Positions 3,473 through 53,615 of a stretch of DNA of 64,000 nucleotides are shown in pieces (the first letter of the stretch is position 1; each line of letters starts with the position of its first letter). A model generated the notes under the pieces. The model was given only the letters and a program-made list of their open reading frames with translations. It was not told the DNA's origin and ran no database searches. The stretch covers positions 106 to 64,105 of the forward strand of contig JAYUPL010000007.1 in assembly GCA_043760135.1 (NCBI GenBank), in the 5' to 3' direction. The position numbers were made by a program, and so were the translations under genes. The DNA is from Candidatus Parcubacteria bacterium (GTDB lineage Bacteria > Patescibacteriota > Minisyncoccia > Phycocordibacterales > CAIZLB01).

Positions 3473-3721
3473 ATTTGACAATAAGGCTTGCTACAACTAT
3501 ACTAAAATCAGTTTTGAGACTTTAAAACTTCTCTAAGTGCAGAAATTCGGCTACTGCCACCTACTTCGTAAGAAGTTGTTGAGATGGGGATTACGTCGTT
3601 CCCTAGAGAAGTTTTAAGTTCTTAAGATAAATTTGACACTCAGATATTGATCATGATACATTTAAATTACTACTAATGACGCTAGATACCTTCTCTAGTT
3701 GGCTCACTGCCTCGATTGGTA

Positions 3722-4207
3722 CTATAGGCATACGGAAGGAACCCTACTTACAACGTTTCCTCTACCGAGGAGGCGTTTTAAGTTTTTCTCATTTAAAGAC
3801 CTAGTTTCAAAATAGGTAACAATGTAAAAACCGTTATCTCTGTTTGCTGCTAAGACTAAATAATTATTAGAATTTGGTACTAACTTTATAATATTAATTC
3901 TATCTACATTTTTATCAAAATTTAAAATAAGGTATTCCCACTTATGAGTGTTAATTATAATATTTTCAGCGCAGATGGGGCCGTGGTCAGATTCTATTTT
4001 GTCTACAATTTCTCTAGATAAGTGTAATGGTCTTTCTTTATTATCAAAGGATAAGTTACTGGATAGATAGCCGATTGTCTCTAGATTACTTTTATAACTT
4101 AAAAGCCTTTTTAGTTTTTTATTGTATCTTTCTTGCTTATTAGTTAAGTTAAATATTTGCTTCGATATAAATGCTGATTTTTTAAATTTTTGATTTTTAT
4201 TTTCCAT
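3722..4207 (-). CDS. hypothetical protein, copy A of a three-member ~160-aa paralogous family
   Basis: Aligns over full length with ORFs 35203-35730 and 44322-44801 (motifs 'RPLxLSRxIxxKIxxDHGxIC', 'NGFYIVTxFE', 'KNLKRLLGRGNV'). Confidence 0.5.
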   Translation of the reverse strand: MENKNQKFKKSAFISKQIFNLTNKQERYNKKLKRLLSYKSNLETIGYLSSNLSFDNKERPLHLSREIVDKIESDHGPICAENIIINTHKWEYLILNFDKNVDRINIIKLVPNSNNYLVLAANRDNGFYIVTYFETRSLNEKNLKRLLGRGNVVSRVPSVCL

Positions 4208-10590: not shown

Positions 10591-10696
10591 TCTTCAGATT
10601 CATTAATTAAGAAAGAAAAATACTGCTCATTTGGGTAGTTTTTTTCTTGAGAGTTTCTTTATGGGAACTTTAGCTGTCTTTTATTATCATTGAAGA

Positions 10697-13000
10697 ATGA
10701 AAAAATATTTTGATCAGTGGAATAATAAAAAGAAATATATAGATAAAACTCCTAAAGATTTGATATTTAATGAAGGAGAGATTTGGTGGTCACATTTCGG
10801 TATAAATGTAGGCGAAGAGGCTTATGGGAAAGGTGGGTATTTTAGGAGACCTGTAGTTGTCTTAAAAAAGATATCACAAAACTCTTGCATAGTTGTGCCG
10901 ACAACCACAAAAATAAAAGAAGGTGAAAATTACTTCAAATTCACAACAAATGATCTAGAAAGAAGAGCTATGCTCTATCAGATAAAGTTTATTTCTGCAA
11001 AAAGATTGTATGTGAGAGAATCTGAGATGGAAAAAGAAGATTTCCTGAAATTAAAAAAATCCCTAGCAAACTTGCTAGAAATCTCTTCATGGTCACCGAG
11101 CGGACAAAAAGGACAATGCTCGGATCAGTGGGTTTCCCCTGGTATGAATCTATTTTATCAAACTCAAAATAATTGTCAAATTTCCAAGTTTTCACGTTCT
11201 GGAATCTGTGCTAAACTTCCATTTATGCAAACATCATTAGAACATAAAAGACATTCCTTGGCGCATGTATTAGCTGGAGCCATATTAAAATTATATCCAG
11301 ATGCTTTGATGACGATTGGTCCTGCTGTTGAAAATGGTTTTTATTATGATATTGATTTTCCAAGCGGATCACCAAAAGAGGAAGACTTTGAGAAAATTCA
11401 AAATGAGATGAAAAATGTTTTAAAAGCCTGGTCAACTTCAGAGCAGAGTTTTGTTCAACAAAAAGTTTCTAAAGAAGAGGCAGAAACTATTTTCAAAAAT
11501 AATTCATACAAGTTGGAACTGATCCAAGGTGTTGTTGATCGAGGTGAAGAAATAACTTTGTATGTTTCTGGGAAAGGTACAGAGTACGAATTTACTGATC
11601 TTTGTCGTGGGGGACATGTTGAGAACACAAAAGAGATTGATGAAGGTTCTTTTGCACTAGATAAGATTGCTGGAGCGTACTGGAGAGGTGATGAGAAAAA
11701 TAAGATGCTTGTGCGAATCTATGGACTTGCATTCGAAACAAAAGAAGAGTTGGATTTATTTATTCATAATAGAGAAGAGGCGAAGAAGAGGGATCATAGA
11801 AAATTAGGAAAGGAATTGAAGCTGTTTACTATTTCAGATTTAGTTGGTTCTGGGCTTCCTTTGTTTCAACCAAAGGGTGCCGTCTTGAGAGTGGAGCTAG
11901 AAAAATACTTGTGGTCAATGCATAAAGATAAGGGTTATCAAAGAGTTTGGACGCCACATCTAGCTAAAGCACAACTGTATGAAATATCAGGTCATGGACA
12001 ACATTACCTTGATGATATGTTTGCAGTGCATGGAGGAACTTCAAAAGAAGATTTTTATTTGAAGCCAATGAATTGTCCTCATCACTACCAATTATTTTTG
12101 GATAATCAATTCTCATATAGGGATATGCCAATCAAATATTTTGAACCGGCAACAATCTATCGTGATGAAAAAACAGGACAATTAGCAGGTCTAACTCGTG
12201 TTCGTTCAATCACTCAAGATGATGGGCATTTATTTTGTCGTTCAACTCAAATCAAGGAAGAGGTAAATATTATTGTAGACATTATCAAGCAATTCTATAC
12301 AACTATGAATATGATTGATGGGTATTGGGTACGACTTTCAACTCGAGGTGATGATAAGGATGTGTATCTTGGGTCTGATGAAGTGTGGGAGACTGCTGAA
12401 AGTGCGTTGAAGGATATTTGTAACGAAAATAATTTACCATACAAAGAGGGTAAAAATGAGGCAGCTTTTTATGGTCCAAAACTGGACTTTATGTTTAAGG
12501 ATGCGATTGGAAGAGAATGGCAATTGGCAACAATCCAGCTTGATTTCAATGCACCAGAAAGATTCAATCTTTCTTTTGTAAATGAAAAAGGTGAAGATGA
12601 AAGACCTGTGGTTATTCACCGTGCCATCTCTGGATCAATAGAAAGATTCTTAGGTGTTGCTATTGAGCACTTTGCTGGAGCGTTTCCGCTATGGCTTTCA
12701 CCTGTTCAATTAAAAATTGTTCCAATCGGTGAAAGACAAATAGACTTTGCACATGATTTATTTAAGAAAATAATGAAGACTGATATAAGAGTTGAGATCG
12801 ATCAAAGTAGTGAAGGACTTGGTAAAAAAGTTCGTGCATCTAAAGTTGAGAAAATTCCATACCTAGTTGTGGTAGGAGATAAAGAAATGGAATCAAATAC
12901 ATTTTCTCTTGAAGGAAGAAATGATGAGAAGATTACAGGGTTAAGTTATGATGACATGGTTAAGTTTTTACAAGATAAAATAGACAGTAAGGCTCTATAA
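10697..13000 (+). CDS. thrS: threonyl-tRNA synthetase carrying an in-frame N-terminal MazF/PemK-like domain (no TGS domain)
   Basis: Residues ~180-767 match ThrRS (editing-domain 'HSLAHVLAGAI...IGPAVENGFYYDIDFP', 'DHRKLGKEL', 'KPMNCPHHYQLF', 'RVRSITQDDGHLFC'). Residues ~1-130 match PemK/MazF ('GEIWWSHFGINVGEEAYGKGGYFRRPVVVLK') and are a paralogue of ORF 45002-45400. No stop codon lies between the two parts. Confidence 0.8.
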   Translation: MKKYFDQWNNKKKYIDKTPKDLIFNEGEIWWSHFGINVGEEAYGKGGYFRRPVVVLKKISQNSCIVVPTTTKIKEGENYFKFTTNDLERRAMLYQIKFISAKRLYVRESEMEKEDFLKLKKSLANLLEISSWSPSGQKGQCSDQWVSPGMNLFYQTQNNCQISKFSRSGICAKLPFMQTSLEHKRHSLAHVLAGAILKLYPDALMTIGPAVENGFYYDIDFPSGSPKEEDFEKIQNEMKNVLKAWSTSEQSFVQQKVSKEEAETIFKNNSYKLELIQGVVDRGEEITLYVSGKGTEYEFTDLCRGGHVENTKEIDEGSFALDKIAGAYWRGDEKNKMLVRIYGLAFETKEELDLFIHNREEAKKRDHRKLGKELKLFTISDLVGSGLPLFQPKGAVLRVELEKYLWSMHKDKGYQRVWTPHLAKAQLYEISGHGQHYLDDMFAVHGGTSKEDFYLKPMNCPHHYQLFLDNQFSYRDMPIKYFEPATIYRDEKTGQLAGLTRVRSITQDDGHLFCRSTQIKEEVNIIVDIIKQFYTTMNMIDGYWVRLSTRGDDKDVYLGSDEVWETAESALKDICNENNLPYKEGKNEAAFYGPKLDFMFKDAIGREWQLATIQLDFNAPERFNLSFVNEKGEDERPVVIHRAISGSIERFLGVAIEHFAGAFPLWLSPVQLKIVPIGERQIDFAHDLFKKIMKTDIRVEIDQSSEGLGKKVRASKVEKIPYLVVVGDKEMESNTFSLEGRNDEKITGLSYDDMVKFLQDKIDSKAL

Positions 13001-34410: not shown

Positions 34411-34656
34411 TCACCGCATGCTGTTGATGGTAAGTGCGAAGAGATTGATTCGATCAGGATCAGTGAGGTAGTTTGCTCTTTCACATTGACACTGGTATTC
34501 TCTCATTCGATTATCGACGAACGTGAACTGGTCTTCGTCCTCTAGAATCACATCTTTTCTGACCCCGCAGGTAACCTCCTTAAGGAAGGTTTCCATCGCT
34601 TTTGAACTTTTTTGTTCGGCGAGTTCTCTCAGATATTGTTTTGCTGGCATGCTCAT
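34411..34656 (-). CDS. hypothetical protein (81 aa, Cys-containing), higher G+C
   Basis: ORF track only. Confidence 0.3.
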   Translation of the reverse strand: MSMPAKQYLRELAEQKSSKAMETFLKEVTCGVRKDVILEDEDQFTFVDNRMREYQCQCERANYLTDPDRINLFALTINSMR

Positions 34657-34804
34657 AATTGTATGGTGTTCGTTGTTTATTTACTCAAATTAAAACAGTG
34701 TATATATTATATCAATATTAGATATATTTGTCAAGTATGGACATTCCACTATCAAAAAATGGTATAATTATAATTATTAATAAATAAATAATAAAAATAA
34801 ACAT

Positions 34805-35202: not shown

Positions 35203-35730
35203 TTGATGGAATACAGAAAACCTAAAAAATCACTTTTTATATCAAAACAAATTAGAAATTTAAATAGTGAGGAAAAGATATATCTCGAGAATTTAAAAAA
35301 AGTTTTAAACAAAGAAAGTGATATTGAAACCATTGGGAATATTCCGGGTTATTTATGTTTTGATAAAAAAGAAAGACCCTTAATTTTATCTCGAGAGATT
35401 GTCGATAAGATAGAAAATGATCATGGTTCAATTTGCTCTCAAAATATGATTATTAACATTTTTGAATGGGAATATGCAACTACTAATGTATTAGGTAATC
35501 CTGATAAAATAAATCTTATTAAAAATATACCCGATTCTGATAATTATCTCTTAGTGGCAGCTGTTAGGATTAATGGCTTTTTTGTACTTACTCATTTTGA
35601 AATTGAAGCTAAAAATGGTAACAATTTAAAACGCCTCCTCGACAGAGGGAGCGTTTTAAATAGGGTCTCTTCTATAGCCTGTACTACCAATCAAGACTTG
35701 AATTCAAGTCAATCTAGAGAAGTTGTCTAG
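35203..35730 (+). CDS. hypothetical protein, copy B of the ~160-aa paralogous family (C-terminally extended)
   Basis: Full-length alignment to copies A and C. Confidence 0.5.
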   Translation: MMEYRKPKKSLFISKQIRNLNSEEKIYLENLKKVLNKESDIETIGNIPGYLCFDKKERPLILSREIVDKIENDHGSICSQNMIINIFEWEYATTNVLGNPDKINLIKNIPDSDNYLLVAAVRINGFFVLTHFEIEAKNGNNLKRLLDRGSVLNRVSSIACTTNQDLNSSQSREVV

Positions 35731-35833
35731 CGTCAAAGGTAATGGTTGTATTTTAGCAAAAGTTTGATTTATGTCAAATAATACACAAGTATTTCCTTTT
35801 GACTTTTTACCTCAAATAATATAGGTTTTATAT

Positions 35834-38356: not shown

Positions 38357-39157
38357 ATGAAAACGTATCAAAAAAACATCACCCTCTTCGTGATTCTTTC
38401 CTTGTGTCTTTTTGTGTATTTTTCAAAAAAAGAAAAAGAAGTTGTGGTTCCTTCAACTGTAGCTACCACCACCGATATTTTTATTAATGATGTAAACGAG
38501 TTTTATACAATTTCAGCACAGTATCCGAAAGAGCTTTGGGACAAAGATTTTACCATGGAAAAAGATGTGCTTACTATTGTAAATCAAAAAAAAGAAGAAT
38601 GGAAAATAGGTGGTCCGGTAAATAATGAAGAAAAGGCGATAACTATGCAGTATCCAGATCGTCCTATTTTAAAATATGAATTAAACATTAAGTTTGATAA
38701 ATTTGAGTCAAAAGATAAAGGTACTGTAAGTTATGTATTTAAAAATTATGAGTTTACAGGTGGGGCTCATGGGGGTACTGGACTGGTAACATACACATTC
38801 GATAAAAACGGTATTGTGAATATTGGAGATATTTTAGACTTAACAAGTAGTGGTCATTCTTTGGCCATAAGTAAAATAATGAGAGATAAGCTAAAAGTGT
38901 CATTAGGTGAATTGCATAATGCAGAGATGTTGGATGGCGGACTTGGTTTGCAGTTTATAAATGCCAATGGAAATTCTAATGCTATAACTGGTGATGCGTT
39001 TAATTTTTCTGCGAATTTTAATAACTTTGTAGTGTTGGATGAGGGGATTAGATTTATTTTTGGGCAATATCAAGTTGCTCCGTATGCTGCTGGTATACCC
39101 GAGGTGTTATTGACTTGGGAGGAACTTAGTCCGTATTTAAAAAAGTATGCTCGTTAA
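38357..39157 (+). CDS. membrane-anchored protein, possibly DUF3298/DUF4163 (RsiV-like) fold
   Basis: N-terminal TM; 'YEFTGGAHGGTG' resembles the DUF3298 'tGGAHG' motif (from memory). Confidence 0.35.
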   Translation: MKTYQKNITLFVILSLCLFVYFSKKEKEVVVPSTVATTTDIFINDVNEFYTISAQYPKELWDKDFTMEKDVLTIVNQKKEEWKIGGPVNNEEKAITMQYPDRPILKYELNIKFDKFESKDKGTVSYVFKNYEFTGGAHGGTGLVTYTFDKNGIVNIGDILDLTSSGHSLAISKIMRDKLKVSLGELHNAEMLDGGLGLQFINANGNSNAITGDAFNFSANFNNFVVLDEGIRFIFGQYQVAPYAAGIPEVLLTWEELSPYLKKYAR

Positions 39158-39169
39158 GTATTCTGTAAA

Positions 39170-39207
39170 TAAAAAACCACCCCCGCGAACACTTGGTTCG
39201 CACGGGG
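39170..39207. terminator. GC-rich hairpin terminator between convergent genes
   Basis: 'AAAAAACCA CCCCGCGAAC acttg GTTCGCACGGGG'. Confidence 0.5.
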
Positions 39208-39221
39208 CACGGGGGAATGGG

Positions 39222-39494
39222 TTATGCAGCACGGCTGCGTTGTTGTTGGTTGGGTTTACTGGCTTCTCTGATCCAGCTGGTAATCTCGTTGTGTACGAGG
39301 TTTGCCAGTTCTGCAGGTGACTTTTCGTCGATTTGAATTGCACTAAGCCAAGCGATTAAGTGTCTCTCATCTTCTTGGTTGAGTTGACTGTTGTCTTGGT
39401 CTGTGTGCGCAGCGATGTGGGCAATCAAGTTTTTGAATCTCAAATCTTCGCGTTTATTTGAGATTCCTTCGAGTATGGTTATTGTTGGTTTCAT
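39222..39494 (-). CDS. hypothetical protein (90 aa), higher G+C
   Basis: ORF track only. Confidence 0.3.
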   Translation of the reverse strand: MKPTITILEGISNKREDLRFKNLIAHIAAHTDQDNSQLNQEDERHLIAWLSAIQIDEKSPAELANLVHNEITSWIREASKPNQQQRSRAA

Positions 39495-39639
39495 GATTTA
39501 TCATAATGGGCTCTACATAATATGTAATATCATTATATATGGCTTTGTCAACCTTGCCACATCACCAAACAAGCTCTTAATAAAATAAACCATTCGAGGA
39601 AAGAATGGTTTATTTATATGTTAGGTTTGGAAAAAGAAT

Positions 39640-42012: not shown

Positions 42013-43020
42013 ATGTCTTTCATTCAAAAATTAAAACAAGATAAACAACGACCCTTATTTGTACTGGCTCCAATGGCTGATGTGACAGATGTGGCTTTTC
42101 GAACTGTCATAGGTGAGGCAGCGTCACCTGACATCTATTGGACTGAGTTTGTGTCGGCAGATGGGCTTATACGAGCTACGGAGATTGGAAAATATAAGCT
42201 AAAAAAAGATTTATTATTTGATACAGAAAAACAACGACCTATTATTGTTCAATTATTTTCTTCTACGTATCAATATATGTATGAGGCAACAAAACTTTGT
42301 ATTGAACTTGGTTTTGATGGTGTGGATATAAACATGGGTTGTCCAGATAAATCAATTGAAAAACAAAAGTGTGGTGCGGCGATGATTAAAAATCCAGAGC
42401 TGGCAGTTGGTGTGATAAAAGCCTGTAAGGATGCACGGCGAGATTTTGGAAATGAAAACTTTTCTGTATCTGTAAAAACTCGAGTAGGATACAATGCGGT
42501 TGAATTAGATTCTTGGATTCCACTATTGTTGGAACAAGAAATCGATCTCATAACTATCCATGCCCGTACTCGAAAAGAAATGTCGAAAGTTGAAGCAAAT
42601 TGGGACTATGTCAAGACTGTTGTCAAGATGAGAGATGGTTGGGTTGAAAAAAATCCTACAAAAACCGCACCACTTATTTTTGGAAATGGTGATGTTGTAA
42701 GTGTTGAGGATGGATTTTCTAAGTGTGAAAATTTTAATGCAGACGGAGCAATGATTGGACGAGCTATGTTCGGTAATCCGTGGTTCTTTAAAGATATCGA
42801 AGAAAAATTCGTACCAACGAGGGAAGACAGAATTAAAACCTTGATCAGACAAGTTGAAGTGTTTGATAGGGAATTGGGAGATGTAAAATCTTTTGCTGTG
42901 ATGAAGAAATTTTTTAAGACGTATATGAATGGGTTTGAGGATGCGAAAGAGATCAGGGAGAAAATTATGGGGATGGAAAATGCCGGTGAGGTTACGAGGT
43001 TTTTGAGAGAATCTCTTTAG
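42013..43020 (+). CDS. dus: tRNA-dihydrouridine synthase
   Basis: 'LAPMADVTDVAFR', TIM-barrel FMN motifs, 'DINMGCP'. Confidence 0.8.
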   Translation: MSFIQKLKQDKQRPLFVLAPMADVTDVAFRTVIGEAASPDIYWTEFVSADGLIRATEIGKYKLKKDLLFDTEKQRPIIVQLFSSTYQYMYEATKLCIELGFDGVDINMGCPDKSIEKQKCGAAMIKNPELAVGVIKACKDARRDFGNENFSVSVKTRVGYNAVELDSWIPLLLEQEIDLITIHARTRKEMSKVEANWDYVKTVVKMRDGWVEKNPTKTAPLIFGNGDVVSVEDGFSKCENFNADGAMIGRAMFGNPWFFKDIEEKFVPTREDRIKTLIRQVEVFDRELGDVKSFAVMKKFFKTYMNGFEDAKEIREKIMGMENAGEVTRFLRESL

Positions 43021-43048
43021 ATGGTAGGGTTGCTTTTTTCGTCAAGAT

Positions 43049-43738
43049 ATGTTTAAATTACATACCCGAAGCGATAACGAAACGCTTGGATTAACACAAA
43101 CTAGAACATTACATACTATGCCTAAAATTGAAGGACACATTAGCCAGATCGAAGCACTTACCAGAAAACTTGGTGCAACTCCAGAATCTCTAGACGCAGT
43201 ATTGGCTTCCAACCTGCTCCGAGATATCCTGAACCCAGATGCAATTCTGAGAAATCTGACTCGAGATTCTTTGAGGCGCATCATTGAACTTCCTGAGCTG
43301 CTCCATGTTGATTACAGTCTGACGTTGGAGGAGGTTATCCGTCAGTCTCAGATTCAGGACATTGACCCGAACCTGTTCAAGGTTGATGCTAAATGCTGGG
43401 AATACAAGTATTCAACCATGAAGACTTTCGAGTGCGAGGATGTTATTTTCGGTGGCCCGACGATTATCAAAAACGCCCGCGAAACTATCAATGGTTCTGA
43501 TGGAGGTTCGTGGCGACAGGTTGATTTGTACCAATTTTTGGTATATCACTGCAAGCATCTAGAAAAACATATTCATCACCCAATTATCTGTGGTCAGATT
43601 CTTGAAATCAAAGGGGTGCAACACATCGCCGTTCTCGGGTCTGAGAAGAAACGTTCATTCATTCATCTGATGCCGATAAAGAGTATGCCGGCTTGGCCAA
43701 AAATAACCCTTTTTCCCAAGGTGCGATTAGCAAAATAA
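43049..43738 (+). CDS. hypothetical protein (229 aa), higher G+C
   Basis: ORF track only. Confidence 0.35.
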   Translation: MFKLHTRSDNETLGLTQTRTLHTMPKIEGHISQIEALTRKLGATPESLDAVLASNLLRDILNPDAILRNLTRDSLRRIIELPELLHVDYSLTLEEVIRQSQIQDIDPNLFKVDAKCWEYKYSTMKTFECEDVIFGGPTIIKNARETINGSDGGSWRQVDLYQFLVYHCKHLEKHIHHPIICGQILEIKGVQHIAVLGSEKKRSFIHLMPIKSMPAWPKITLFPKVRLAK

Positions 43739-43820
43739 CGACGTACAATCGCAAAAACCAAAAATCCTGCAACAGCATCACACTGTTGCGGGAATTTTAT
43801 TTTACATATAAAATCAAACT

Positions 43821-44276
43821 ATGAATTACTGGCTCATGAAATCTGAAGGAGATTGCTATCCTATCGAACAACTTAAAAAAGATAAAGTCACTCCATGGGG
43901 CGGTGTGCGCAACTATCAAGCACGAAACTACATGAAAGAGATGGAAGTTGGAGATATGGTTTTATTCTATCATTCAAGTTCAAAACCCACTGGAGTATTT
44001 GGATTGGCAAAAGTTGTAAAAACTGCACATCCTGATCTGACCGCTTTTGATAAAAGAGATGATCATTATGATGAACGATCAACAGTAGAAAAACCCATCT
44101 GGGAATGTGTTGATGTACAGTATGTTTCAACATTTAAAGAACCTATCACATTAGATGAAATGAAAAGATATCGAGAGTTAAGCACAATGAAATTATTTCA
44201 AAAAGGATCAAGATTGTCAGTTATTCCAGTGACTGAGAAGGAGTACAATTTTATTGTTTCTTTGGGGAAAGTTTAG
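43821..44276 (+). CDS. EVE (PUA-like) domain protein
   Basis: 'MNYWLMKSEG...GGVRNYQARNYMKEMEVGDMVLFYHSS...GVFGLAKVV'. Confidence 0.7.
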   Translation: MNYWLMKSEGDCYPIEQLKKDKVTPWGGVRNYQARNYMKEMEVGDMVLFYHSSSKPTGVFGLAKVVKTAHPDLTAFDKRDDHYDERSTVEKPIWECVDVQYVSTFKEPITLDEMKRYRELSTMKLFQKGSRLSVIPVTEKEYNFIVSLGKV

Positions 44277-44321
44277 AATTTCTTTATGAGAACTTTATGT
44301 TGGTTTTGGTATTATTTTTGA

Positions 44322-44801
44322 ATGCTAATCGAAAAACCAAAAAAGCCTGCATTTATCCACGGACCTATCCTACCTCTGAATAAAAGAGAGGAGATGTACT
44401 TGTGGAAAATAAAAAATATTATCAAATATAAAAGCACTCATGAAAATATTGGGTATGTACCCGAATCTTTATCAAAGGACGCTAAAGTCAGACCCCTTAT
44501 TTTATCTCGAAGTATATTACATAAAATTCAATCTGATCATGGACATATTTGTCCAGAAAACATGATTATCAATGCACATCGGTGGGATTATATCGTTTCG
44601 TATCCATATAACAATGTAGACAAGATTGTGCTGGTAAAGAATATACCGAATAGTCGCAATTATTTTGTGTTAGCAGCTAACAGAAATAATGGTTTTTATA
44701 TTGTGACACATTTCGAAGTCGAAGCGATGACTGGAAAAAACTTAAAACGTCTCCTCGGTAGAGGAAACGTTTTAAGTAGGGGGCCTTCTATATGCCTATA
44801 G
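44322..44801 (+). CDS. hypothetical protein, copy C of the ~160-aa paralogous family
   Basis: Full-length alignment to copies A and B; 200 bp upstream of the MazF-like gene. Confidence 0.5.
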   Translation: MLIEKPKKPAFIHGPILPLNKREEMYLWKIKNIIKYKSTHENIGYVPESLSKDAKVRPLILSRSILHKIQSDHGHICPENMIINAHRWDYIVSYPYNNVDKIVLVKNIPNSRNYFVLAANRNNGFYIVTHFEVEAMTGKNLKRLLGRGNVLSRGPSICL

Positions 44802-45001
44802 TACCGATCTGAGACTTTTTCAAGTCAGTATGAGAAGGTGTCATGTGTCATCGGTAATGGTTGTATTATACGCTTGGGTAAACCAAAGTCAAATTGTAGA
44901 ATATTTTGATCATTTCAATGAAATATAATTTTATTTTTTCTTTGGTAAAACTTTAAAATCTCTTTATCAGAACTTTATCGGTATTTTTATAAAATTGATG
45001 G

Positions 45002-45400
45002 ATGAATAACAAAAACTATGATGAATGGAATATATTAAAGAAAAGAATAAATAAATTATATAAAACCAAACATCCAAAAATAAGAGAAGTTTGGTGGGTA
45101 AATATCGGTTTGAATATAGGCTCTGAAATATATGGAAAGGGTTCAAAATATTTAAGACCTGTATTGGTGTTAAAGGTAAATGATGAAAGTTTTTTAGGTA
45201 TACCATTATCATCAAAATTAAGGAAAAGCAAACAAAGATTCATTTTGAAAACAAATGATCAGAAGCTTCATTCCTTGGTTTTTAATCAAATTAAGATTTT
45301 GGACAACAGGAGATTGTTGAGTAAGAAGTATATTATTTCAAAAAATAAATTTAGGAAAATAATCCGTAAATTTAAAAATACGATAACCGTCAATGGTTAG
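45002..45400 (+). CDS. MazF/PemK-family toxin-like protein
   Basis: 'REVWWVNIGLNIGSEIYGKGSKYLRPVLVLK' matches the MazF/PemK core; paralogue of the ThrRS N-terminal domain. Confidence 0.65.
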   Translation: MNNKNYDEWNILKKRINKLYKTKHPKIREVWWVNIGLNIGSEIYGKGSKYLRPVLVLKVNDESFLGIPLSSKLRKSKQRFILKTNDQKLHSLVFNQIKILDNRRLLSKKYIISKNKFRKIIRKFKNTITVNG

Positions 45401-45502
45401 TTGACGGTTATCCGGCCCGAAGGCTGAGGAGCATAAGCTCAACTCGTACCTTCATTGTATCAAATTATCTTTTGCTGTCAAATTTGGTATAATACTCATC
45501 AT

Positions 45503-46426
45503 ATGTCAGAACACACATCCTTATATAGAAAATATCGCCCCTCTAATTTCTCTGAAGTTCTAGGTCAAGATCATATTATTTCTGTATTACAAAAAGCTAT
45601 TGAAAGTAAAAATCCAAACCATGCCTACATCTTTACTGGTTCAAGAGGTATTGGAAAAACTTCTATTGCTCGTATCTTTGCTCGAGAGTTAGGGGTTAAT
45701 GAAGCTGATATTTATGAGATTGATTCAGCATCGTATACTGGAGTTGATAATATTAGAGAGCTTATCGAAAGTGCCACGGTACTTCCGATGCAATCACCAT
45801 ACAAAGTGTACATACTCGATGAGGTTCACATGCTTTCGAAGAATGCTTTTAATGCATTTCTTAAGGGATTGGAAGAGCCACCAAAGCATGTGATTTATAT
45901 ATTGGCGACAACAGAATTAAATAAATTATTAGATACAATTATTTCTCGCTGCGAAGTTCATAATTTTAAAAAGCCGAGTATCGAGATACTGTCTCAAGTT
46001 GTTTCGGACGTTGTCAAGAAAGAAGGGTTATCTATAGATGATGAATCGACAAAATTGATAGCCATGAGCGGGGATGAATCTTTTAGAGATACATTGTCTG
46101 TTTTGCAAAAAGTTATCGCATCTATTGGAAGTAAGAAAATAGAGAACATAGAACATATTTTAAATATTCCGGATATATCTTTGATCGAAGAGATTATAGA
46201 AAAGAATATAAAAGGGGAGGCAGTGTTTGAAAATATTGATAAACTAAAACAAAATAATGCTGATGGAAAAATCGTGTATGATTTGTTTATGGATAGATTA
46301 CGATCAAAATTGAGAGAGGGAAAAGATAAAGAAAAAGTTCTGAGCTTGTTTACTAAGGCATTGGAAAATTATCGACATGTAAGGTTTGTGGATGCGTTTT
46401 TGGTGTTGGAGGTGGTGTGTGGATAA
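45503..46426 (+). CDS. dnaX: DNA polymerase III clamp-loader subunit (gamma/tau-like, or delta')
   Basis: 'YRPSNFSEVLGQDHI', Walker A 'GSRGIGKTSIAR', 'ILDEVHML', 'SRC'; short (307 aa); -10 TATAAT 9 nt before ATG. Confidence 0.6.
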   Translation: MSEHTSLYRKYRPSNFSEVLGQDHIISVLQKAIESKNPNHAYIFTGSRGIGKTSIARIFARELGVNEADIYEIDSASYTGVDNIRELIESATVLPMQSPYKVYILDEVHMLSKNAFNAFLKGLEEPPKHVIYILATTELNKLLDTIISRCEVHNFKKPSIEILSQVVSDVVKKEGLSIDDESTKLIAMSGDESFRDTLSVLQKVIASIGSKKIENIEHILNIPDISLIEEIIEKNIKGEAVFENIDKLKQNNADGKIVYDLFMDRLRSKLREGKDKEKVLSLFTKALENYRHVRFVDAFLVLEVVCG

Positions 46427-49133: not shown

Positions 49134-50006
49134 TTATAGTCTCATTTCCTTCTTCGGAAACATTTGAGACAATATAACCGCTGTGAAAATTATTCCAAAA
49201 AGCACAGCCAAAGATATTGCTGAGCTAATATGAATATGGAAAATTCCAAGCATCATTTTCCCTCCAATAAAAAATAGGATGATTGCCAAAGCCTTCGTAA
49301 TAAGATGAAATTTATGAAGTATATATTCAACAACGAAGAACAATGACCGTAGACCTAAAAGAGCAAAAGCATTTGCAGTAAAGATCACAAATCTATTTTG
49401 ACTAATAGCAAACGAAGCGGGGATAGAATCAACGGCAAAAATAATATCAGAAAATTCTATCATCAAGAGACATAGGAAGAGATTGGTGATGTGAAATTTC
49501 TTGTTAATCGTAATAAAAAACTTCTTGCCATGATGTCCATCAGCAATTGGTAAAACTTTGTTTAAAAATTTTAGTATTTTATTTGTATCTAAATTTTTAT
49601 CTTTCTCATTTTTCTCTTTTAATATTTGAATACCAGTGTAAATAAGAAGTGCACCAAAAAGATACAATACCCATTCAAATCTTTGTACGATTTCAAATCC
49701 TAACCCTATAAAAATGGCACGAAATACAAATGCCCCCATAATTCCTAAAAATAATACTCGATGCTGATATTTTTCCTCAACTTTAAAATAAGAGAATATT
49801 AAAAGCATGATAAAGAGGTTATCAATAGAGAGCATGTATTCAGTTATATACACAGAGAACCATTGAAACCCAATCTCGGCACCGCGAGTAAAGTAGACAT
49901 AGATACCAAAAGCAACAGCGGTCATCACCCACATTAAGGTCAGTAAAATAGATTTTTTTATTTTGTTCATTGGTATATTAAAACATGTTTGAAGTGGATT
50001 TGACAA
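49134..50006 (-). CDS. TerC-family integral membrane protein
   Basis: Multi-TM; 'LSIDNLFIMLLIF' TerC-like motif. Confidence 0.5.
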   Translation of the reverse strand: MSNPLQTCFNIPMNKIKKSILLTLMWVMTAVAFGIYVYFTRGAEIGFQWFSVYITEYMLSIDNLFIMLLIFSYFKVEEKYQHRVLFLGIMGAFVFRAIFIGLGFEIVQRFEWVLYLFGALLIYTGIQILKEKNEKDKNLDTNKILKFLNKVLPIADGHHGKKFFITINKKFHITNLFLCLLMIEFSDIIFAVDSIPASFAISQNRFVIFTANAFALLGLRSLFFVVEYILHKFHLITKALAIILFFIGGKMMLGIFHIHISSAISLAVLFGIIFTAVILSQMFPKKEMRL

Positions 50007-50158
50007 ACTTTAACAACTTGCTAAAATAAATATGTAATCTGAAGGACAGAAAATTAACAATCGGCTTGCTGCGGACTTCGCTGAAAATGCTTAGTACTTA
50101 TGGATGAAATGTTCTCATTTTTAATAAATGATCCCTGCCGTCATCCCAGACTACAATT

Positions 50159-50190
50159 AAAAACACCACCGGTTATCCGGTGGTGTTTTT
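50159..50190. terminator. rho-independent terminator overlapping the 3' end of ORF 50173-50505
   Basis: 'AAAAACACCACCGG ttat CCGGTGGTGTTTTT' perfect hairpin. Confidence 0.6.
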
Positions 50191-50505
50191 AATTTTCTTA
50201 TAATGCATTGTCACTATTTCAAGATGATCTTCGGTATGTTCGAGCACTATTCTGATTATCGGTATGGATCTTATGCTTTCAGAAAAATCTTTTGAAAAAT
50301 AAAGCCTATTACTATTTGTTTCCAACGAATTATAATTACTTAGAACATTTTCAATGTTGTCGATAATTAAATAAAGCCTTCCTAAAATATATTCATTTTC
50401 AGATCCAACTAATTCTCCAGACCTGCTCTCAACAAAATGCTTCAAGGCCCTCTTGGAAATATATACATCTTTGTCCTCCAGTCCGCATACAAACACCAAT
50501 CCCAA
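50173..50505 (-). CDS. hypothetical protein (110 aa)
   Basis: ORF track only. Confidence 0.35.
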   Translation of the reverse strand: MGLVFVCGLEDKDVYISKRALKHFVESRSGELVGSENEYILGRLYLIIDNIENVLSNYNSLETNSNRLYFSKDFSESIRSIPIIRIVLEHTEDHLEIVTMHYKKIKNTTG

Positions 50506-50716
50506 AAAATCTGCAATTAATTCACCTTTTTTAGATGGAAATATTCGTTAACTAGTTTTTTAATTGTAATTATATTTGTGTTAATTCTTCAATTTTACAA
50601 AACCACCCATAAACTCCCCATAAAGAAAAACCGAAGATTTCCACAAGAAAAGATGAAGAAAGGTAAAACCAGCCTCAAATTTTGCATTTTCTCAAAAAAT
50701 ATGTCAAAATGGTGCG

Positions 50717-52534: not shown

Positions 52535-52633
52535 TTAATTTTATGTATTTGCTCCGTTTCAGTCCTCGGTCCTTTGCTTAGAGCAAAAGACCTGCGAAGA
52601 AACTCACTCATACATAAAATTAATAGTAAATGA

Positions 52634-52660
52634 AAAGCGTTCAGTGGTGGACGCTTTTTT
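52634..52660 (+). terminator. hairpin plus T-run downstream of typA; a TTGACT -35-like box follows at 52667
   Basis: 'AAGCGTtcagtggtggACGCTTTTTT'. Confidence 0.4.
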
Positions 52661-52725
52661 GTTGTGTTGACTTGCAAGGTTCGTTATGGTTTAATATATT
52701 CGTCAAACATTCAACATACACCATC

Positions 52726-53211
52726 ATGAAAATAATTGAACTTCCATGTCTCTATGAAGGCTTTCCTCTTTCTCTCGCTTGGTATGGCTACTCAACCATT
52801 GTAGAAACATACTCATTTCGGATATTCACTTTGAATAAGGAATATCTATCGTCGATCATTGTCGATTGGGACATTATTTCGATAATGGATATGATCTGCT
52901 CAGACTTTCCAGAGTATGCCGCTATTGAGCGTGCTGCGGCAGACGGACCTGTTGTTGAGTTGGCGGAGGCAAGACTTAAAACCAATAGGATTGCTATGGA
53001 TCAAATCCCTTTCGTTATTGAGGCTACCTTCTTTAAAACTGGCCACATTATGTCTCGTCAGTATATAAATGCAGGGGAAGAAACCCTGGGATACAGAGTT
53101 GTCTTTAGGTTTGCAGAGTCATTGCAAGCACCGGTTTCAGAGGATAACCCTCCGTTGTTTAATCCGCGGACTGATAGACTTTTTATACTCAGCAATAAAT
53201 TTATTGTATAG
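52726..53211 (+). CDS. hypothetical protein, higher G+C (start uncertain)
   Basis: ORF; internal Met 'MKIIELP' follows a promoter-like region. Confidence 0.3.
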   Translation: MKIIELPCLYEGFPLSLAWYGYSTIVETYSFRIFTLNKEYLSSIIVDWDIISIMDMICSDFPEYAAIERAAADGPVVELAEARLKTNRIAMDQIPFVIEATFFKTGHIMSRQYINAGEETLGYRVVFRFAESLQAPVSEDNPPLFNPRTDRLFILSNKFIV

Positions 53212-53268: not shown

Positions 53269-53615
53269 ATAATTTCAGTATTTCTTAATAATTTCAATAT
53301 CTACCTAGATAACATATAAAGAAAAAAGGTCGTCATCCTAACGGTCGACGCCTTTTTTCAAACTAGCCTTAGTTATTATAATATCAAAAAAATATTTTAT
53401 GTTAAATCTGCTAAAACATAAAATAAAAATACTCAACTAAGAGTATCTTTATCCATGCGACCGGCGCCAGCTTGTGAAGATGAGGATTGTTTAAATCCGG
53501 CGGTCTAACGGACCTTTTTCTCTTCAGCTTGTTACGCTATATATTATACTTGTGGAGAAAGGTAAGTCAAATACCATTCATAAACCCTCAAAACTGTGTT
53601 ATACTGCAAATAATT

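What the first reader, a model, noticed from the sequence alone, without database searches (positions are those of the whole stretch)
43049..45400. Candidate defence/toxin island: higher-G+C ORFan, EVE-domain protein, unknown-family copy C and MazF-like toxin
Four consecutive same-strand genes with no housekeeping assignment. A 229-aa ORFan (43049-43738) has visibly higher G+C than its neighbours. A standalone 151-aa EVE/PUA-like domain protein follows; EVE domains read modified bases and recur in modification-dependent restriction and abortive-infection contexts. Then come the 159-aa unknown-family protein and a MazF-like toxin. The block is flanked by core genes, dus upstream and a dnaX-like gene downstream.
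Basis: inference. Interest (0 to 1): 0.55.

Follow-up and report, generated by a model that had tools for sequence, protein, structure and literature searches.

The report
RNase toxin genes with antisense RNAs
In this tiny-genome Parcubacteria/Paceibacteria bacterium, the flagged block holds two predicted RNase toxin genes that have no protein antitoxin; each faces a conserved, structured antisense small-RNA gene, an unusual toxin-antitoxin design, while the EVE gene next to them is a stable resident rather than part of a mobile defence island.

Summary
The four ORFs exist as described. EVE matches PF01878 (E 2e-53). The MazF-like protein matches PF02452, and its fold matches solved MazF structures. 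The block is not a defence island: PADLOC finds no system. The order dus - X - EVE - (MazF-like) - dnaX is syntenic in related Paceibacteria, and EVE evolves at a housekeeping-like rate. The 159-aa "unknown family" is a stand-alone copy of a domain found inside giant polyvalent proteins. It has the PBECR RNase signature: an invariant His in the helix before the sheet and Thr/Ser in strand 4. The new result is that both RNase genes lack a neighbouring antitoxin ORF. Each instead overlaps at its 3' end a convergent small-RNA gene with a near-consensus sigma-70 promoter, conserved covarying hairpins and an intrinsic terminator inside the toxin ORF. asRNA1 lies at about 44733-44858(-) and asRNA2 at about 45373-45447(-). 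The orf159/asRNA1 module occurs three times in the window. It was inserted at the EVE stop codon in this lineage. Elsewhere the RNA also occurs with only remnants of the ORF. The best reading is type-I-like (possibly type-III-like) toxin-antisense RNA modules with full-size RNase toxins. All evidence is computational; neither expression nor toxicity has been tested.

The parts
43118..43738 (+). orfX: 206 aa from M24 (the longest ORF starts at 43049, 229 aa). A hypervariable gene of unknown function that always sits upstream of EVE.
   Evidence: ORF; 43% G+C; no Pfam, PHROG, PADLOC or PDB match. It is only 26-28% identical to its positional counterparts, while neighbouring genes are 85-97% identical. 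No other homologue was found in 5.8e9 proteins.
43821..44276 (+). Stand-alone EVE (PUA-like) domain protein, 151 aa. A conserved resident gene.
   Evidence: PF01878 E 2.2e-53. It holds the same position in all relatives and is 84-93% identical. Its C-terminus reads ...FIVSLGKV* where the orf159 module follows and ...FIVSL* where it does not.
44258..44297 (+). Two copies of an 18-nt motif, TTCTTTNNNNRAAYTTTA, starting 22 nt apart. They are followed by an extended -10 (TGGTATTAT) that ends 6 nt before the ATG of orf159. This is the shared promoter/operator cassette, and the mRNA is probably leaderless.
   Evidence: Pattern searches (7 matches in the window against 0.83 expected). The same cassette precedes the MazF-like gene, the MazF-thrS ORF and the 110-aa ORF. 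The spacing from -10 to ATG is shown.
44322..44801 (+). orf159, copy C: a stand-alone PBECR-like domain and a predicted metal-independent endoRNase (putative toxin 1).
   Evidence: AF2 model with pLDDT 85 and pTM 0.80. A profile search found 101 relatives, about half of them embedded in 700-3100-aa proteins. One of these carries ART-PolyVal PF18760 next to the domain. The best BFVD fold hits are phage polyvalent proteins. The distant member P0090 hits Pfam PBECR2 with E 4e-4. H73 is invariant and T129 is Thr/Ser in 91 of 92 distant domains.
44733..44858 (-). asRNA1, copy C: a predicted ~126-nt antisense sRNA. A multi-helix domain (P2 enclosing P4 and P3) is followed by a linker and a terminator hairpin P1. 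P1 lies inside the last ~70 nt of orf159.
   Evidence: Terminator with a 17-bp stem plus T6 at 44777->44740 on the minus strand. Comparative structure on 24 distinct sequences: 88.4% of cells paired against 39-47% when partners are slid, and 41 cells changed on both sides against 12.9 in shuffles, 0/500. P3 forms a hairpin in 21 of 24 antisense-strand sequences, with many different stems. MFE -38.7 kcal/mol, z -6.4. G-U counts favour the minus strand for P1, P2 and P4. No Rfam family matches.
44865..44892 (-). Promoter of asRNA1 (TTGACT-16-TATAAT, 11/12).
   Evidence: In 24 homologous elements the -35 and -10 are conserved while the spacer between them varies. It is one of only 10 sites scoring >=11/12 in the 64-kb window; another of the 10 lies upstream of the 16S rRNA gene.
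44938..44977 (+). Second instance of the tandem 18-nt motif cassette, upstream of the MazF-like gene. Its -10 (TAAAAT) ends 6 nt before the ATG.
45002..45400 (+). MazF/PemK-family endoribonuclease, 132 aa (putative toxin 2), with no adjacent antitoxin ORF.
   Evidence: PF02452 and phrog_9567. Fold match to solved MazF structures. R52 (RPVLV) and S70 (PLSS) are conserved in 25 homologues. The only upstream ORF of >=20 aa lies within the asRNA1 region. Homologues in seven other loci (L045-L050, L010) are also solitary.
45373..45447 (-). asRNA2: a predicted ~75-nt antisense sRNA. It consists of hairpin H1, a GCC-UUCG-GGC tetraloop hairpin and a terminator that overlaps the last ~28 nt of the MazF-like ORF.
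   Evidence: Terminator with a 12-bp stem plus a T-run at 45412->45382 on the minus strand. Seven homologous sequences all fold into the same three hairpins. 92.1% of cells are paired against 29-47% when slid, and 4 terminator pairs carry changes on both sides. No Rfam family matches.
45454..45481 (-). Promoter of asRNA2 (TTGACA-16-TACAAT with TG, 11/12). It sits back to back with the dnaX promoter.
3722..4207 (-). orf159 paralogue A.
3633..3787 (+). asRNA1 of paralogue A, with promoter TTGACA-18-TACATT at 3633-3662 and terminator at 3752-3777.
35203..35730 (+). orf159 paralogue B. A 1-nt deletion gives it a different C-terminal tail that reads through the RNA element.
35617..35777 (-). asRNA1 of paralogue B, with promoter TTGACA-16-TAAAAT (TG) at 35777->35750.

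Best explanation
The block contains two conserved resident genes (orfX and EVE) followed by two independent toxin-antisense RNA modules. Each module has three parts. The first is a shared promoter cassette: two 18-nt motifs plus an extended -10 that ends 6 nt before the AUG, which suggests a leaderless mRNA. The second is a full-size predicted endoribonuclease, either the PBECR-like orf159 or a MazF-family protein. The third is a convergent, strongly promoted, structured small RNA whose terminator hairpin lies inside the 3' end of the RNase ORF. The proposed mechanism is as follows. The abundant antisense RNA pairs with the 3' end of the toxin mRNA. This triggers duplex-dependent degradation and/or transcriptional interference, as in the 3'-overlapping type I systems of Gram-positive bacteria (TxpA/RatA, BsrG/SR4). 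It may also bind the RNase protein directly, as in type III systems. If the unstable RNA is lost, the RNase is made and cleaves cellular or invading RNA. What is shown: the ORFs, their family and fold assignments, the conserved catalytic-type residues, the absence of neighbouring antitoxin ORFs, the promoter and terminator signals, covariation in the RNAs, the repetition of the module, and its variable presence. What is inferred: that the RNAs are transcribed, that the proteins are toxic, and that the RNAs act as antitoxins.
For: Toxin 1: the orf159 domain occurs in giant polyvalent-type proteins and its best fold hits are phage polyvalent proteins. His73 and Thr/Ser129 are invariant or nearly so. 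They sit at the positions that define PBECR RNases (PMC5512222, section 19; model). There is a sub-threshold link to Pfam PBECR2 through P0090.
Toxin 2: MazF fold and motifs.
No protein antitoxin: no plausible ORF lies beside either gene in the window. MazF-like homologues in seven other loci (L045-L050, L010) are also solitary.
Antisense RNA genes: near-consensus promoters and terminators lie on the opposite strand at all three orf159 copies and at the MazF-like gene. These account for 4 of the 10 best promoters in 64 kb. The -35 and -10 are conserved while the spacers vary. Covariation and slide controls support the structures. G-U asymmetry and a UUCG loop favour the antisense strand. z = -6.4.
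Module behaviour typical of toxin-antitoxin systems: there are three copies in 64 kb. The module was inserted at the EVE stop codon in one lineage only. MazF is lost in some relatives. Elsewhere, asRNA1 copies retain only remnants of their ORF (L029, L040), and ORF-less asRNA2 copies occur in L009, L010 and L017.
Against: There are no transcript data, so promoter and terminator matches remain predictions. Part of the conservation of P1 is explained by the coding of the NLKRLLGRGNV motif. One proposed helix (TAGG/CCTA) fits the sense strand better than the antisense strand. Classical type I toxins are 20-60-aa hydrophobic peptides (PMC8594479), and these proteins are not. orf159 itself does not hit any Pfam PBECR model or any solved structure. 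The loop sequences of asRNA1 are conserved more strongly than cis-pairing alone would require, which hints at another or an additional role. An antitoxin encoded elsewhere in the genome, as for M. xanthus MazF-mx/MrpC (PMC4803016), cannot be excluded.
Confidence: 0.55

Rival explanations
1. Type-III-like rather than type-I-like control. The structured RNAs neutralise the RNases by binding the proteins, and may be processed by them; the antisense overlap with the mRNA is secondary.
For: Loop and linker sequences of asRNA1 stay nearly invariant between paralogues that are only 52-57% identical as proteins. cis-pairing does not require that. The MazF fold is shared with type III toxins: CptN ranks 39th among the fold hits. 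asRNA copies that retain only ORF remnants, or none, persist, as expected for antitoxins that act in trans.
Against: There are no tandem RNA repeats upstream of the toxin genes, and such repeats are the defining type III layout. The RNA genes are convergent and overlap the ORFs, which is the type I layout of Gram-positive bacteria (PMC8594479).
Confidence: 0.2
2. The proteins are non-toxic housekeeping or regulatory RNases of a reduced genome. The conserved 3' elements are ordinary regulatory features: mRNA 3'-UTR stabilisers or terminators acting in the sense strand, or trans-acting sRNAs unrelated to the adjacent gene.
For: X-EVE-MazF-like is syntenic across genera. A MazF-like domain is even read in frame with thrS. 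One helix fits the sense strand better. Antisense RNAs that merely tune expression are known, for example aMEF for mazEF (PMC8749433).
Against: Presence varies between close relatives, and orf159 occurs as several dispersed copies. The domain belongs to polyvalent conflict proteins. The dedicated opposite-strand promoters and terminators have no other gene to serve. G-U asymmetry favours the antisense strand in three of four helices.
Confidence: 0.15
3. One reading: a defence island in which EVE senses modified bases of invading nucleic acid and directs the neighbouring effectors (MazF-like, orf159).
For: EVE domains occur in toxin-antitoxin and modification-dependent restriction contexts (PMC7641849). 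EVE lies immediately upstream of MazF-like in L045 and L047. The neighbouring orfX is hypervariable.
Against: PADLOC finds no system. EVE evolves as slowly as housekeeping genes, whereas PMC7641849 reports that defence-linked EVE domains are typically fast-evolving. MazF-like homologues and orf159 paralogues occur without EVE. EVE persists where MazF-like is absent.
Confidence: 0.07
4. The conserved DNA around orf159 marks the ends of a small mobile element (IS200-like or cassette-like). On this view, orf159 is its recombinase and the conserved 3' structure is a DNA hairpin.
For: The unit is about 630 bp with conserved upstream and downstream boundaries. It is dispersed in several copies and was inserted precisely at the EVE stop codon.
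Against: The model does not resemble HUH/Y1 transposases or any solved recombinase. The same domain is an internal module of giant polyvalent proteins. The downstream conserved block has the anatomy of a promoter, structured RNA and terminator, with a variable promoter spacer. No copies were found in IMG/VR.
Confidence: 0.03

Closest known systems
3'-overlapping type I toxin-antitoxin systems of Gram-positive bacteria (TxpA/RatA, BsrG/SR4, BsrE/SR5, YonT; Fst/RNAII)
   Same: The toxin mRNA and a 60-200-nt antisense RNA are transcribed convergently and overlap at their 3' ends, including the end of the ORF (PMC8594479). The antisense RNA has a strong promoter. Multiple chromosomal copies occur.
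   Different: The toxins here are 132- and 159-aa soluble predicted RNases, not 20-60-aa hydrophobic peptides. The host is a CPR/Patescibacteria bacterium; PMC12390103 states that type I systems had been found only in Proteobacteria, Firmicutes and Tenericutes. The antisense RNA has a conserved multi-helix domain outside the overlap.
Type I systems with enzyme-like toxins (SymE/SymR, RalR/RalA)
   Same: An antisense RNA controls a nuclease-type toxin that is not a membrane peptide.
   Different: Those RNAs pair at or near the 5' region or the coding region of the toxin mRNA in E. coli. The proteins are unrelated (AbrB-like SymE, the small DNase RalR). No homology to them was found here. This comparison rests on my own knowledge of these systems; the two are only listed as references in PMC8594479.
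Type II MazEF
   Same: The toxin belongs to the MazF/PemK family by sequence, fold and catalytic-type residues.
   Different: There is no mazE-like gene upstream or downstream, either in the window or in seven homologous loci. A convergent antisense sRNA gene is present instead. The known mazEF antisense RNA aMEF acts on a system that still has MazE (PMC8749433).
Type III ToxIN/CptIN/AbiQ
   Same: An endoRNase toxin with a MazF/Kid-like fold is neutralised by RNA. CptN appears among the fold hits.
   Different: There is no tandem-repeat RNA array upstream of the toxin. The RNA here is a single structured unit on the opposite strand.
PBECR domains of phage and conjugative-element polyvalent proteins (Iyer et al. 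2017, PMC5512222)
   Same: A helix followed by a four-stranded sheet, with His in the helix and Thr/Ser in strand 4. The domain occurs inside giant multi-domain proteins (one beside ART-PolyVal) and also as solo proteins.
   Different: orf159 matches none of the Pfam PBECR1-5 models; only a distant relative gives a sub-threshold PBECR2 hit. It has an extra N-terminal helix and two strands. Here it is chromosomal, present in several copies, and paired with an antisense RNA.
Solitary MazF-mx of Myxococcus xanthus, with MrpC as trans-encoded antitoxin
   Same: A MazF gene with no adjacent antitoxin gene (PMC4803016).
   Different: In that case the proposed antitoxin is a distant transcription factor protein. 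Here a conserved antisense RNA gene is physically attached to the toxin gene.

Membership tests
Type I toxin-antitoxin system | A cis-encoded antisense RNA of 60-200 nt, with its own promoter, that overlaps the toxin mRNA | tested here: met
   Predicted only. Opposite-strand promoters (11/12) and terminators define RNAs of ~126 and ~75 nt that overlap the 3' ends of the ORFs. They are conserved and covary. No transcript data exist.
Type I toxin-antitoxin system | The toxin is a small (20-60 aa), usually hydrophobic peptide (PMC8594479) | tested here: not met
   The toxin candidates are 159 and 132 aa and are modelled as globular alpha/beta proteins.
Type I toxin-antitoxin system | The protein is toxic, and the antisense RNA prevents its synthesis by base pairing | not testable with these tools
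   Requires expression experiments.
Type II MazEF | The toxin has the MazF/PemK fold and catalytic-type residues | tested here: met
   PF02452 at 32.7 bits. Foldseek matches MazF structures with E 3e-6 and TM up to 0.76. R52 and S70 are conserved.
Type II MazEF | An adjacent co-transcribed protein antitoxin gene (mazE/pemI) | tested here: not met
   No candidate ORF lies in the 200-nt upstream or 100-nt downstream gap. Homologues in L045-L050 and L010 are also solitary.
Type III toxin-antitoxin (ToxIN-like) | An array of tandem RNA repeats upstream of the toxin gene | tested here: not met
   Tandem Repeats Finder finds nothing in 43000-45600.
Type III toxin-antitoxin (ToxIN-like) | The RNA binds and inhibits the endoRNase protein | not testable with these tools
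   Needs biochemistry.
PBECR (BECR-fold RNase of polyvalent proteins) | A core of an N-terminal helix followed by 4-5 strands, with His in the helix and Ser/Thr in strand 4 (PMC5512222) | tested here: met
   In the AF2 model, helix 63-73 ends in H73, strands run from 90 to 135, and T129 is in the fourth strand. H73 is present in 82 of 82 distant domains and T/S129 in 91 of 92.
PBECR (BECR-fold RNase of polyvalent proteins) | Occurrence as a module of polyvalent proteins | tested here: met
   About half of the 101 relatives are domains inside 700-3100-aa proteins. P0044 has ART-PolyVal next to the domain. The best BFVD hits are polyvalent proteins.
PBECR (BECR-fold RNase of polyvalent proteins) | A significant match to a Pfam PBECR1-5 model or to a solved BECR structure | tested here: inconclusive
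EVE domain | A match to PF01878 over the full domain | tested here: met
   E 2.2e-53; residues 2-147 match positions 1-144 of the 145-position model.
Known anti-phage defence system (PADLOC) | Component proteins match the system's HMMs in the required combination | tested here: not met
   The only hit is a weak, partial match of EVE to PDC-M11A (E 1.4e-3). The other three proteins have no hits.

The most novel reading that the evidence does not exclude
Parcubacteria/Paceibacteria carry an unrecognised class of toxin-antitoxin modules. In these, full-size endoribonuclease toxins of unrelated folds (MazF, PBECR-like and perhaps others) are each controlled by a structured, convergent antisense RNA. 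The modules share a common leaderless promoter cassette, occur several times per genome, and are exchanged like cassettes. This would be a hybrid of type I architecture with type II/III toxins, in a lineage where type I systems have not been reported.
Probability: 0.4. Interest if true: 0.8.

Novelty: new variant of a known kind. Interest (0 to 1): 0.68.

Why it matters
Type I (antisense-RNA) toxin-antitoxin systems are thought to be phylogenetically narrow and limited to tiny membrane peptides. MazF is the textbook protein-neutralised (type II) toxin. If MazF-family and PBECR-like RNases are really held in check by dedicated antisense RNAs, the boundary between toxin-antitoxin types would blur. 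It would also add two new structured RNA families that are absent from Rfam. It would give the first mechanistic handle on a polyvalent-protein domain of unknown function. And it would show that ultra-small CPR genomes, which largely lack CRISPR (PMC4742961), invest in several RNA-controlled RNase modules. The prediction can be tested directly with existing metatranscriptomes and with simple co-expression assays.

Tried and rejected
- PADLOC, NCBIfam, Pfam and PHROGs gave nothing for orf159 or orfX.
- A profile search of PDB sequences and a Foldseek search of PDB gave only noise for orf159: 14-3-3 and NTF2-like hits with TM below 0.3.
- I first considered that the conserved 3' DNA of orf159 could be an IS200/IS605-type transposon end, or a TnpB-like omega-RNA on the sense strand. 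I dropped this when the opposite-strand promoter and terminator were found and G-U counts favoured the antisense strand.
- A possible pseudoknot, CCUUC/GAAGG, within asRNA1 cannot be evaluated. Four of its five pairs are almost invariant, and the varying one changes without compensation.
- The TAGG/CCTA helix fits the sense strand, not the antisense RNA, so it was left out of the model.
- RNAalifold on the MAFFT alignment recovered only P1 and P4, because P3 is misaligned. I therefore assessed P3 by folding each sequence.
- The 110-aa ORF of the third module shows no profile similarity to orf159.
- The asRNA1 core pattern is absent from IMG/VR viral contigs.
- Seven of ten giant proteins carrying the domain had no Pfam domain at the thresholds used.
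- No covariance model was built.
Full report
**Observation.** The region contains four consecutive plus-strand ORFs, exactly as listed.
- The first ORF has 43% G+C against a window mean of 35.9%.
- The second is a full-length EVE domain (PF01878, E 2.2e-53).
- The third (159 aa) has no Pfam, NCBIfam, PHROG or PADLOC match. It has two paralogues in the window, at 3722-4207(-) and 35203-35730(+).
- The fourth is a MazF/PemK-family protein (PF02452 at 32.7 bits; phrog_9567 E 1.8e-18).
- The flanks are dus and dnaX.
- Record titles of related contigs place the organism in Candidatus Parcubacteria/Paceibacteria, within the CPR.

**Is it an island?** Contigs from relatives were recovered through exact-protein look-ups.
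- In genomes whose orf159 is 77-90% identical, the order dus - X - EVE - orf159 - dnaX - RNase J is kept. The MazF-like gene is present only in some of them.
- In more distant genomes (MazF-like 64-67% identical, including GCA_041752275.1) the order is dus - X - EVE - MazF-like - dnaX - RNase J, with no orf159.
- EVE is 84-93% identical between genomes whose dus, dnaX, rnj, eno and bipA are 85-97% identical. orf159 is 77-90% identical. orfX is only 26-28% identical.
- orfX is therefore not a true orphan, because it has weak positional homologues. It is hypervariable, or was replaced, in the window strain, and nothing else in 5.8 billion proteins resembles it.
- EVE ends ...FIVSLGKV* wherever orf159 follows and ...FIVSL* where it does not. 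This places the left edge of an inserted orf159 module at the EVE stop codon.
- PADLOC finds no defence system.
- Bell et al. (PMC7641849) report that fast-evolving EVE domains typically sit in defence contexts. This EVE evolves slowly and keeps a fixed position.
- So X-EVE are residents, and orf159 and MazF-like are separate modules of variable presence.

**What is orf159?**
- An alignment-based AF2 model is confident (pLDDT 85, pTM 0.80).
- A profile search of 1.8 billion cluster representatives found 101 relatives. About half are a domain inside proteins of 700-3100 aa.
- One of these giant proteins has the Pfam domain "ADP-ribosyltransferase in polyvalent proteins" directly after the domain.
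- The best fold matches among viral models are phage polyvalent proteins (E about 1e-3, TM 0.46-0.52). Solved structures give nothing.
- Iyer et al. [quoted passage not shown]
- In the model, H73 ends the helix before the sheet and T129 lies in the fourth strand. Across 102 distant domain instances, H73 is present in 82 of 82 and residue 129 is Thr or Ser in 91 of 92.
- A distant family member gives a sub-threshold hit to Pfam PBECR2 (E 4e-4).
- I therefore read orf159 as a divergent, stand-alone PBECR-like endoRNase. Membership by an HMM or solved-structure match remains inconclusive.

**The MazF-like protein.**
- Its model matches S. aureus, B. subtilis, M. tuberculosis and E. coli MazF (E down to 3e-6, TM up to 0.76) and, at lower rank, the type III toxin CptN.
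- The GSE...RPVLV and PLSS motifs are conserved in 25 homologues. From my own knowledge, these motifs hold the catalytic Arg and Thr/Ser of MazF.
- No antitoxin-sized ORF flanks the gene. Homologues in seven other loci, including a Campylobacter genome, are likewise solitary.

**The new feature: antisense RNA genes (asRNA1).**
- Aligning the DNA of the three orf159 paralogues showed that the last ~70 nt of the ORF and ~95 nt beyond the stop codon are far better conserved than the rest of the gene.
- A further 21 distinct copies were collected from genomes and metagenomes.
- On the strand opposite to orf159, the scan finds a near-consensus promoter at all three copies:
  - copy C: TTGACT-16-TATAAT at 44892->44865;
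  - copy B: TTGACA-16-TAAAAT;
  - copy A: TTGACA-18-TACATT.
- At copy C it also finds an intrinsic terminator, a 17-bp stem plus T6 at 44777->44740 inside the ORF, and at copy A an 11-bp terminator stem at 3752-3777. At copy B only a short 5-bp hairpin is detected.
- In the 24-sequence alignment the -35 and -10 hexamers are nearly invariant while the spacer is free to vary.
- The predicted 126-nt RNA has a helix P2 that encloses hairpins P4 and P3, then a linker, then the terminator P1.
- On the alignment, 88.4% of cells pair, against 39-47% when partners are slid. Eleven pairs show changes on both sides, and 41 such cells compare with 12.9 in shuffles (0 of 500 reach the observed value).
- P3 is misaligned by MAFFT, but it folds as a hairpin in 21 of 24 antisense-strand sequences with many different stems.
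- G-U against A-C counts favour the antisense strand for P1 (44 against 7), P2 (7 against 1) and P4 (7 against 2).
- The window copy folds as the comparative model predicts, with z = -6.4.

**The same architecture at the MazF-like gene (asRNA2).**
- A minus-strand promoter, TTGACA-16-TACAAT with TG, lies at 45481->45454. A minus-strand terminator at 45412->45382 overlaps the stop codon.
- Seven homologous sequences fold into the same three hairpins: a variable H1, a GCC-UUCG-GGC hairpin and the terminator.
- 92% of cells are paired, and the terminator shows compensatory changes.
- Neither RNA matches any Rfam 15 family.
- Only ten sites in the 64-kb window reach 11/12 of the promoter consensus. 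One lies upstream of the 16S rRNA gene, and at least five face the 3' end of a small toxin-like or unknown ORF.

**Shared upstream cassette.**
- Both toxin genes, the MazF-thrS ORF and a 110-aa ORF are preceded by copies of an 18-nt motif, TTCTTTNNNNRAAYTTTA. There are 7 matches in the window against 0.83 expected.
- At orf159 copy C and at the MazF-like gene the motif occurs twice, with starts 22 nt apart.
- A -10-like hexamer ends exactly 6 nt before the ATG in all five orf159 and MazF-like genes, with no Shine-Dalgarno sequence. This suggests leaderless mRNAs. That reading is an inference.

**Module behaviour.**
- orf159/asRNA1 occurs three times in 64 kb. Elsewhere it lies in unrelated contexts, after map or beside a SpoU methylase gene.
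- Copies of asRNA1 with only remnants of the ORF exist in L029 and L040.
- ORF-less copies of asRNA2 sit between the orf159 and MazF modules in L009, L010 and L017.
- Patchy presence, multiplication and surviving orphan antitoxin-like parts are typical of toxin-antitoxin modules. That generalisation is from my own knowledge.

**Mechanism and comparison.**
- The layout is that of the Gram-positive type I families, in which the antisense RNA overlaps the 3' end of the toxin mRNA and ORF (PMC8594479). The size and hydrophobic-peptide criterion for the toxin is not met.
- The MazF protein lacks the MazE partner that defines type II systems. The tandem-repeat RNA that defines type III systems is absent.
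- I therefore describe the modules as working like type I systems, possibly with a type III-like protein-binding component. The unusually strong sequence conservation of the asRNA1 loops is the reason for that caveat. I do not file them as members of any existing family.
- Literature searches found no CPR or MazF precedent for this arrangement. The nearest cases are an antisense RNA that tunes a complete mazEF operon (PMC8749433) and the solitary MazF-mx with a distant protein antitoxin (PMC4803016).

**Verdict.** The "defence island centred on EVE" reading is largely wrong. What is there is more interesting: two (and in the window at least five) RNase/antisense-RNA modules of a new variant. 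Everything about expression, toxicity and neutralisation remains to be tested.

Noticed in passing
window 10697-13000 (+); promoter 11179->11152 (-): A MazF-like domain (aa 26-126; PF02452 at 33 bits; RPVVV and PTTT motifs kept) is read in one 767-aa ORF with threonyl-tRNA synthetase. It is preceded by the same 18-nt motif (10655-10672). A near-consensus antisense promoter (TTGACA-16-TAAAAT) sits just after the MazF part. This is either a true MazF-ThrRS fusion, or a MazF module that lost its stop codon upstream of a thrS that starts near residue 178 (MQTSLEHKRHSLAH...).
   Followed up: partly
window 50000-50660: A third module with the same architecture. A 110-aa ORF (50173-50505, -; TTG start; no family; not called as a gene on the same-strain contig L001) lies behind the shared motif promoter (50592-50658). 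It faces a plus-strand promoter, TTGACA-16-TAAAAT, at 50000-50027. A plus-strand terminator with an 18-bp stem (50155-50194) overlaps its stop codon. The RNA part is 85% conserved in L004:6680-6855, where the ORF is replaced by a DUF3800 gene.
   Followed up: partly
window 53543-53570 (-) and ORF 52630-53211 (+): Another 11/12 promoter (TTGACT-16-TATAAT) points at the 3' end of a 193-aa ORF with no family assignment. This may be a further toxin/antisense pair.
   Followed up: no
window 3475-3625 (+): A strong promoter (TTGACA-17-TATACT) lies directly after the terminator of the TraG-like gene. It is followed by ~115 nt with a long-range stem (CTTAAAACTTCTCTA ... TAGAGAAGTTTTAAG), just upstream of the asRNA1 of paralogue A. 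This may be an additional small RNA gene.
   Followed up: no
window 558-3431 (+): A 957-aa protein with TraG/VirD4/TrwB coupling-protein and HerA-like ATPase signatures lies next to orf159 paralogue A. PBECR domains are reported on elements with type IV secretion-like DNA transfer (PMC5512222).
   Followed up: no
L029:3210-4173 and L004:6680-7512: DUF3800 genes sit next to antisense-RNA elements that lack their usual ORF, in two unrelated loci. In L029 the neighbour is an asRNA1 element with only ORF remnants. In L004 it is an asRNA3-like element.
   Followed up: no
L040:650-1305: A MazF-like homologue is followed directly by a remnant of the orf159 3' end plus a complete asRNA1 element. The two module types thus also co-occur in a different order in another genome.
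   Followed up: partly
window 34706-34734 (-): The only perfect 12/12 sigma-70 consensus in the window (TTGACA-17-TATAAT). It lies upstream of an 81-aa minus-strand ORF (about 34411-34656), between the iPGM gene and paralogue B.
   Followed up: no
window 39150-39600: A stretch with raised G+C (0.43-0.44), strong AT skew and only short overlapping ORFs, between a PdaC/DUF3298 gene and enolase. No Rfam family reaches its gathering score. It could be an unrecognised RNA gene or a small protein gene.
   Followed up: no
L048:2914-4227 (Campylobacter lanienae): The solitary MazF-like homologue in Campylobacter is followed by 1.3 kb with no called gene. That region begins with a hairpin and a ...GGGTATCCGAGCC... 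stretch, which resembles the asRNA2 core GGTTATCCGGCCC.
   Followed up: no
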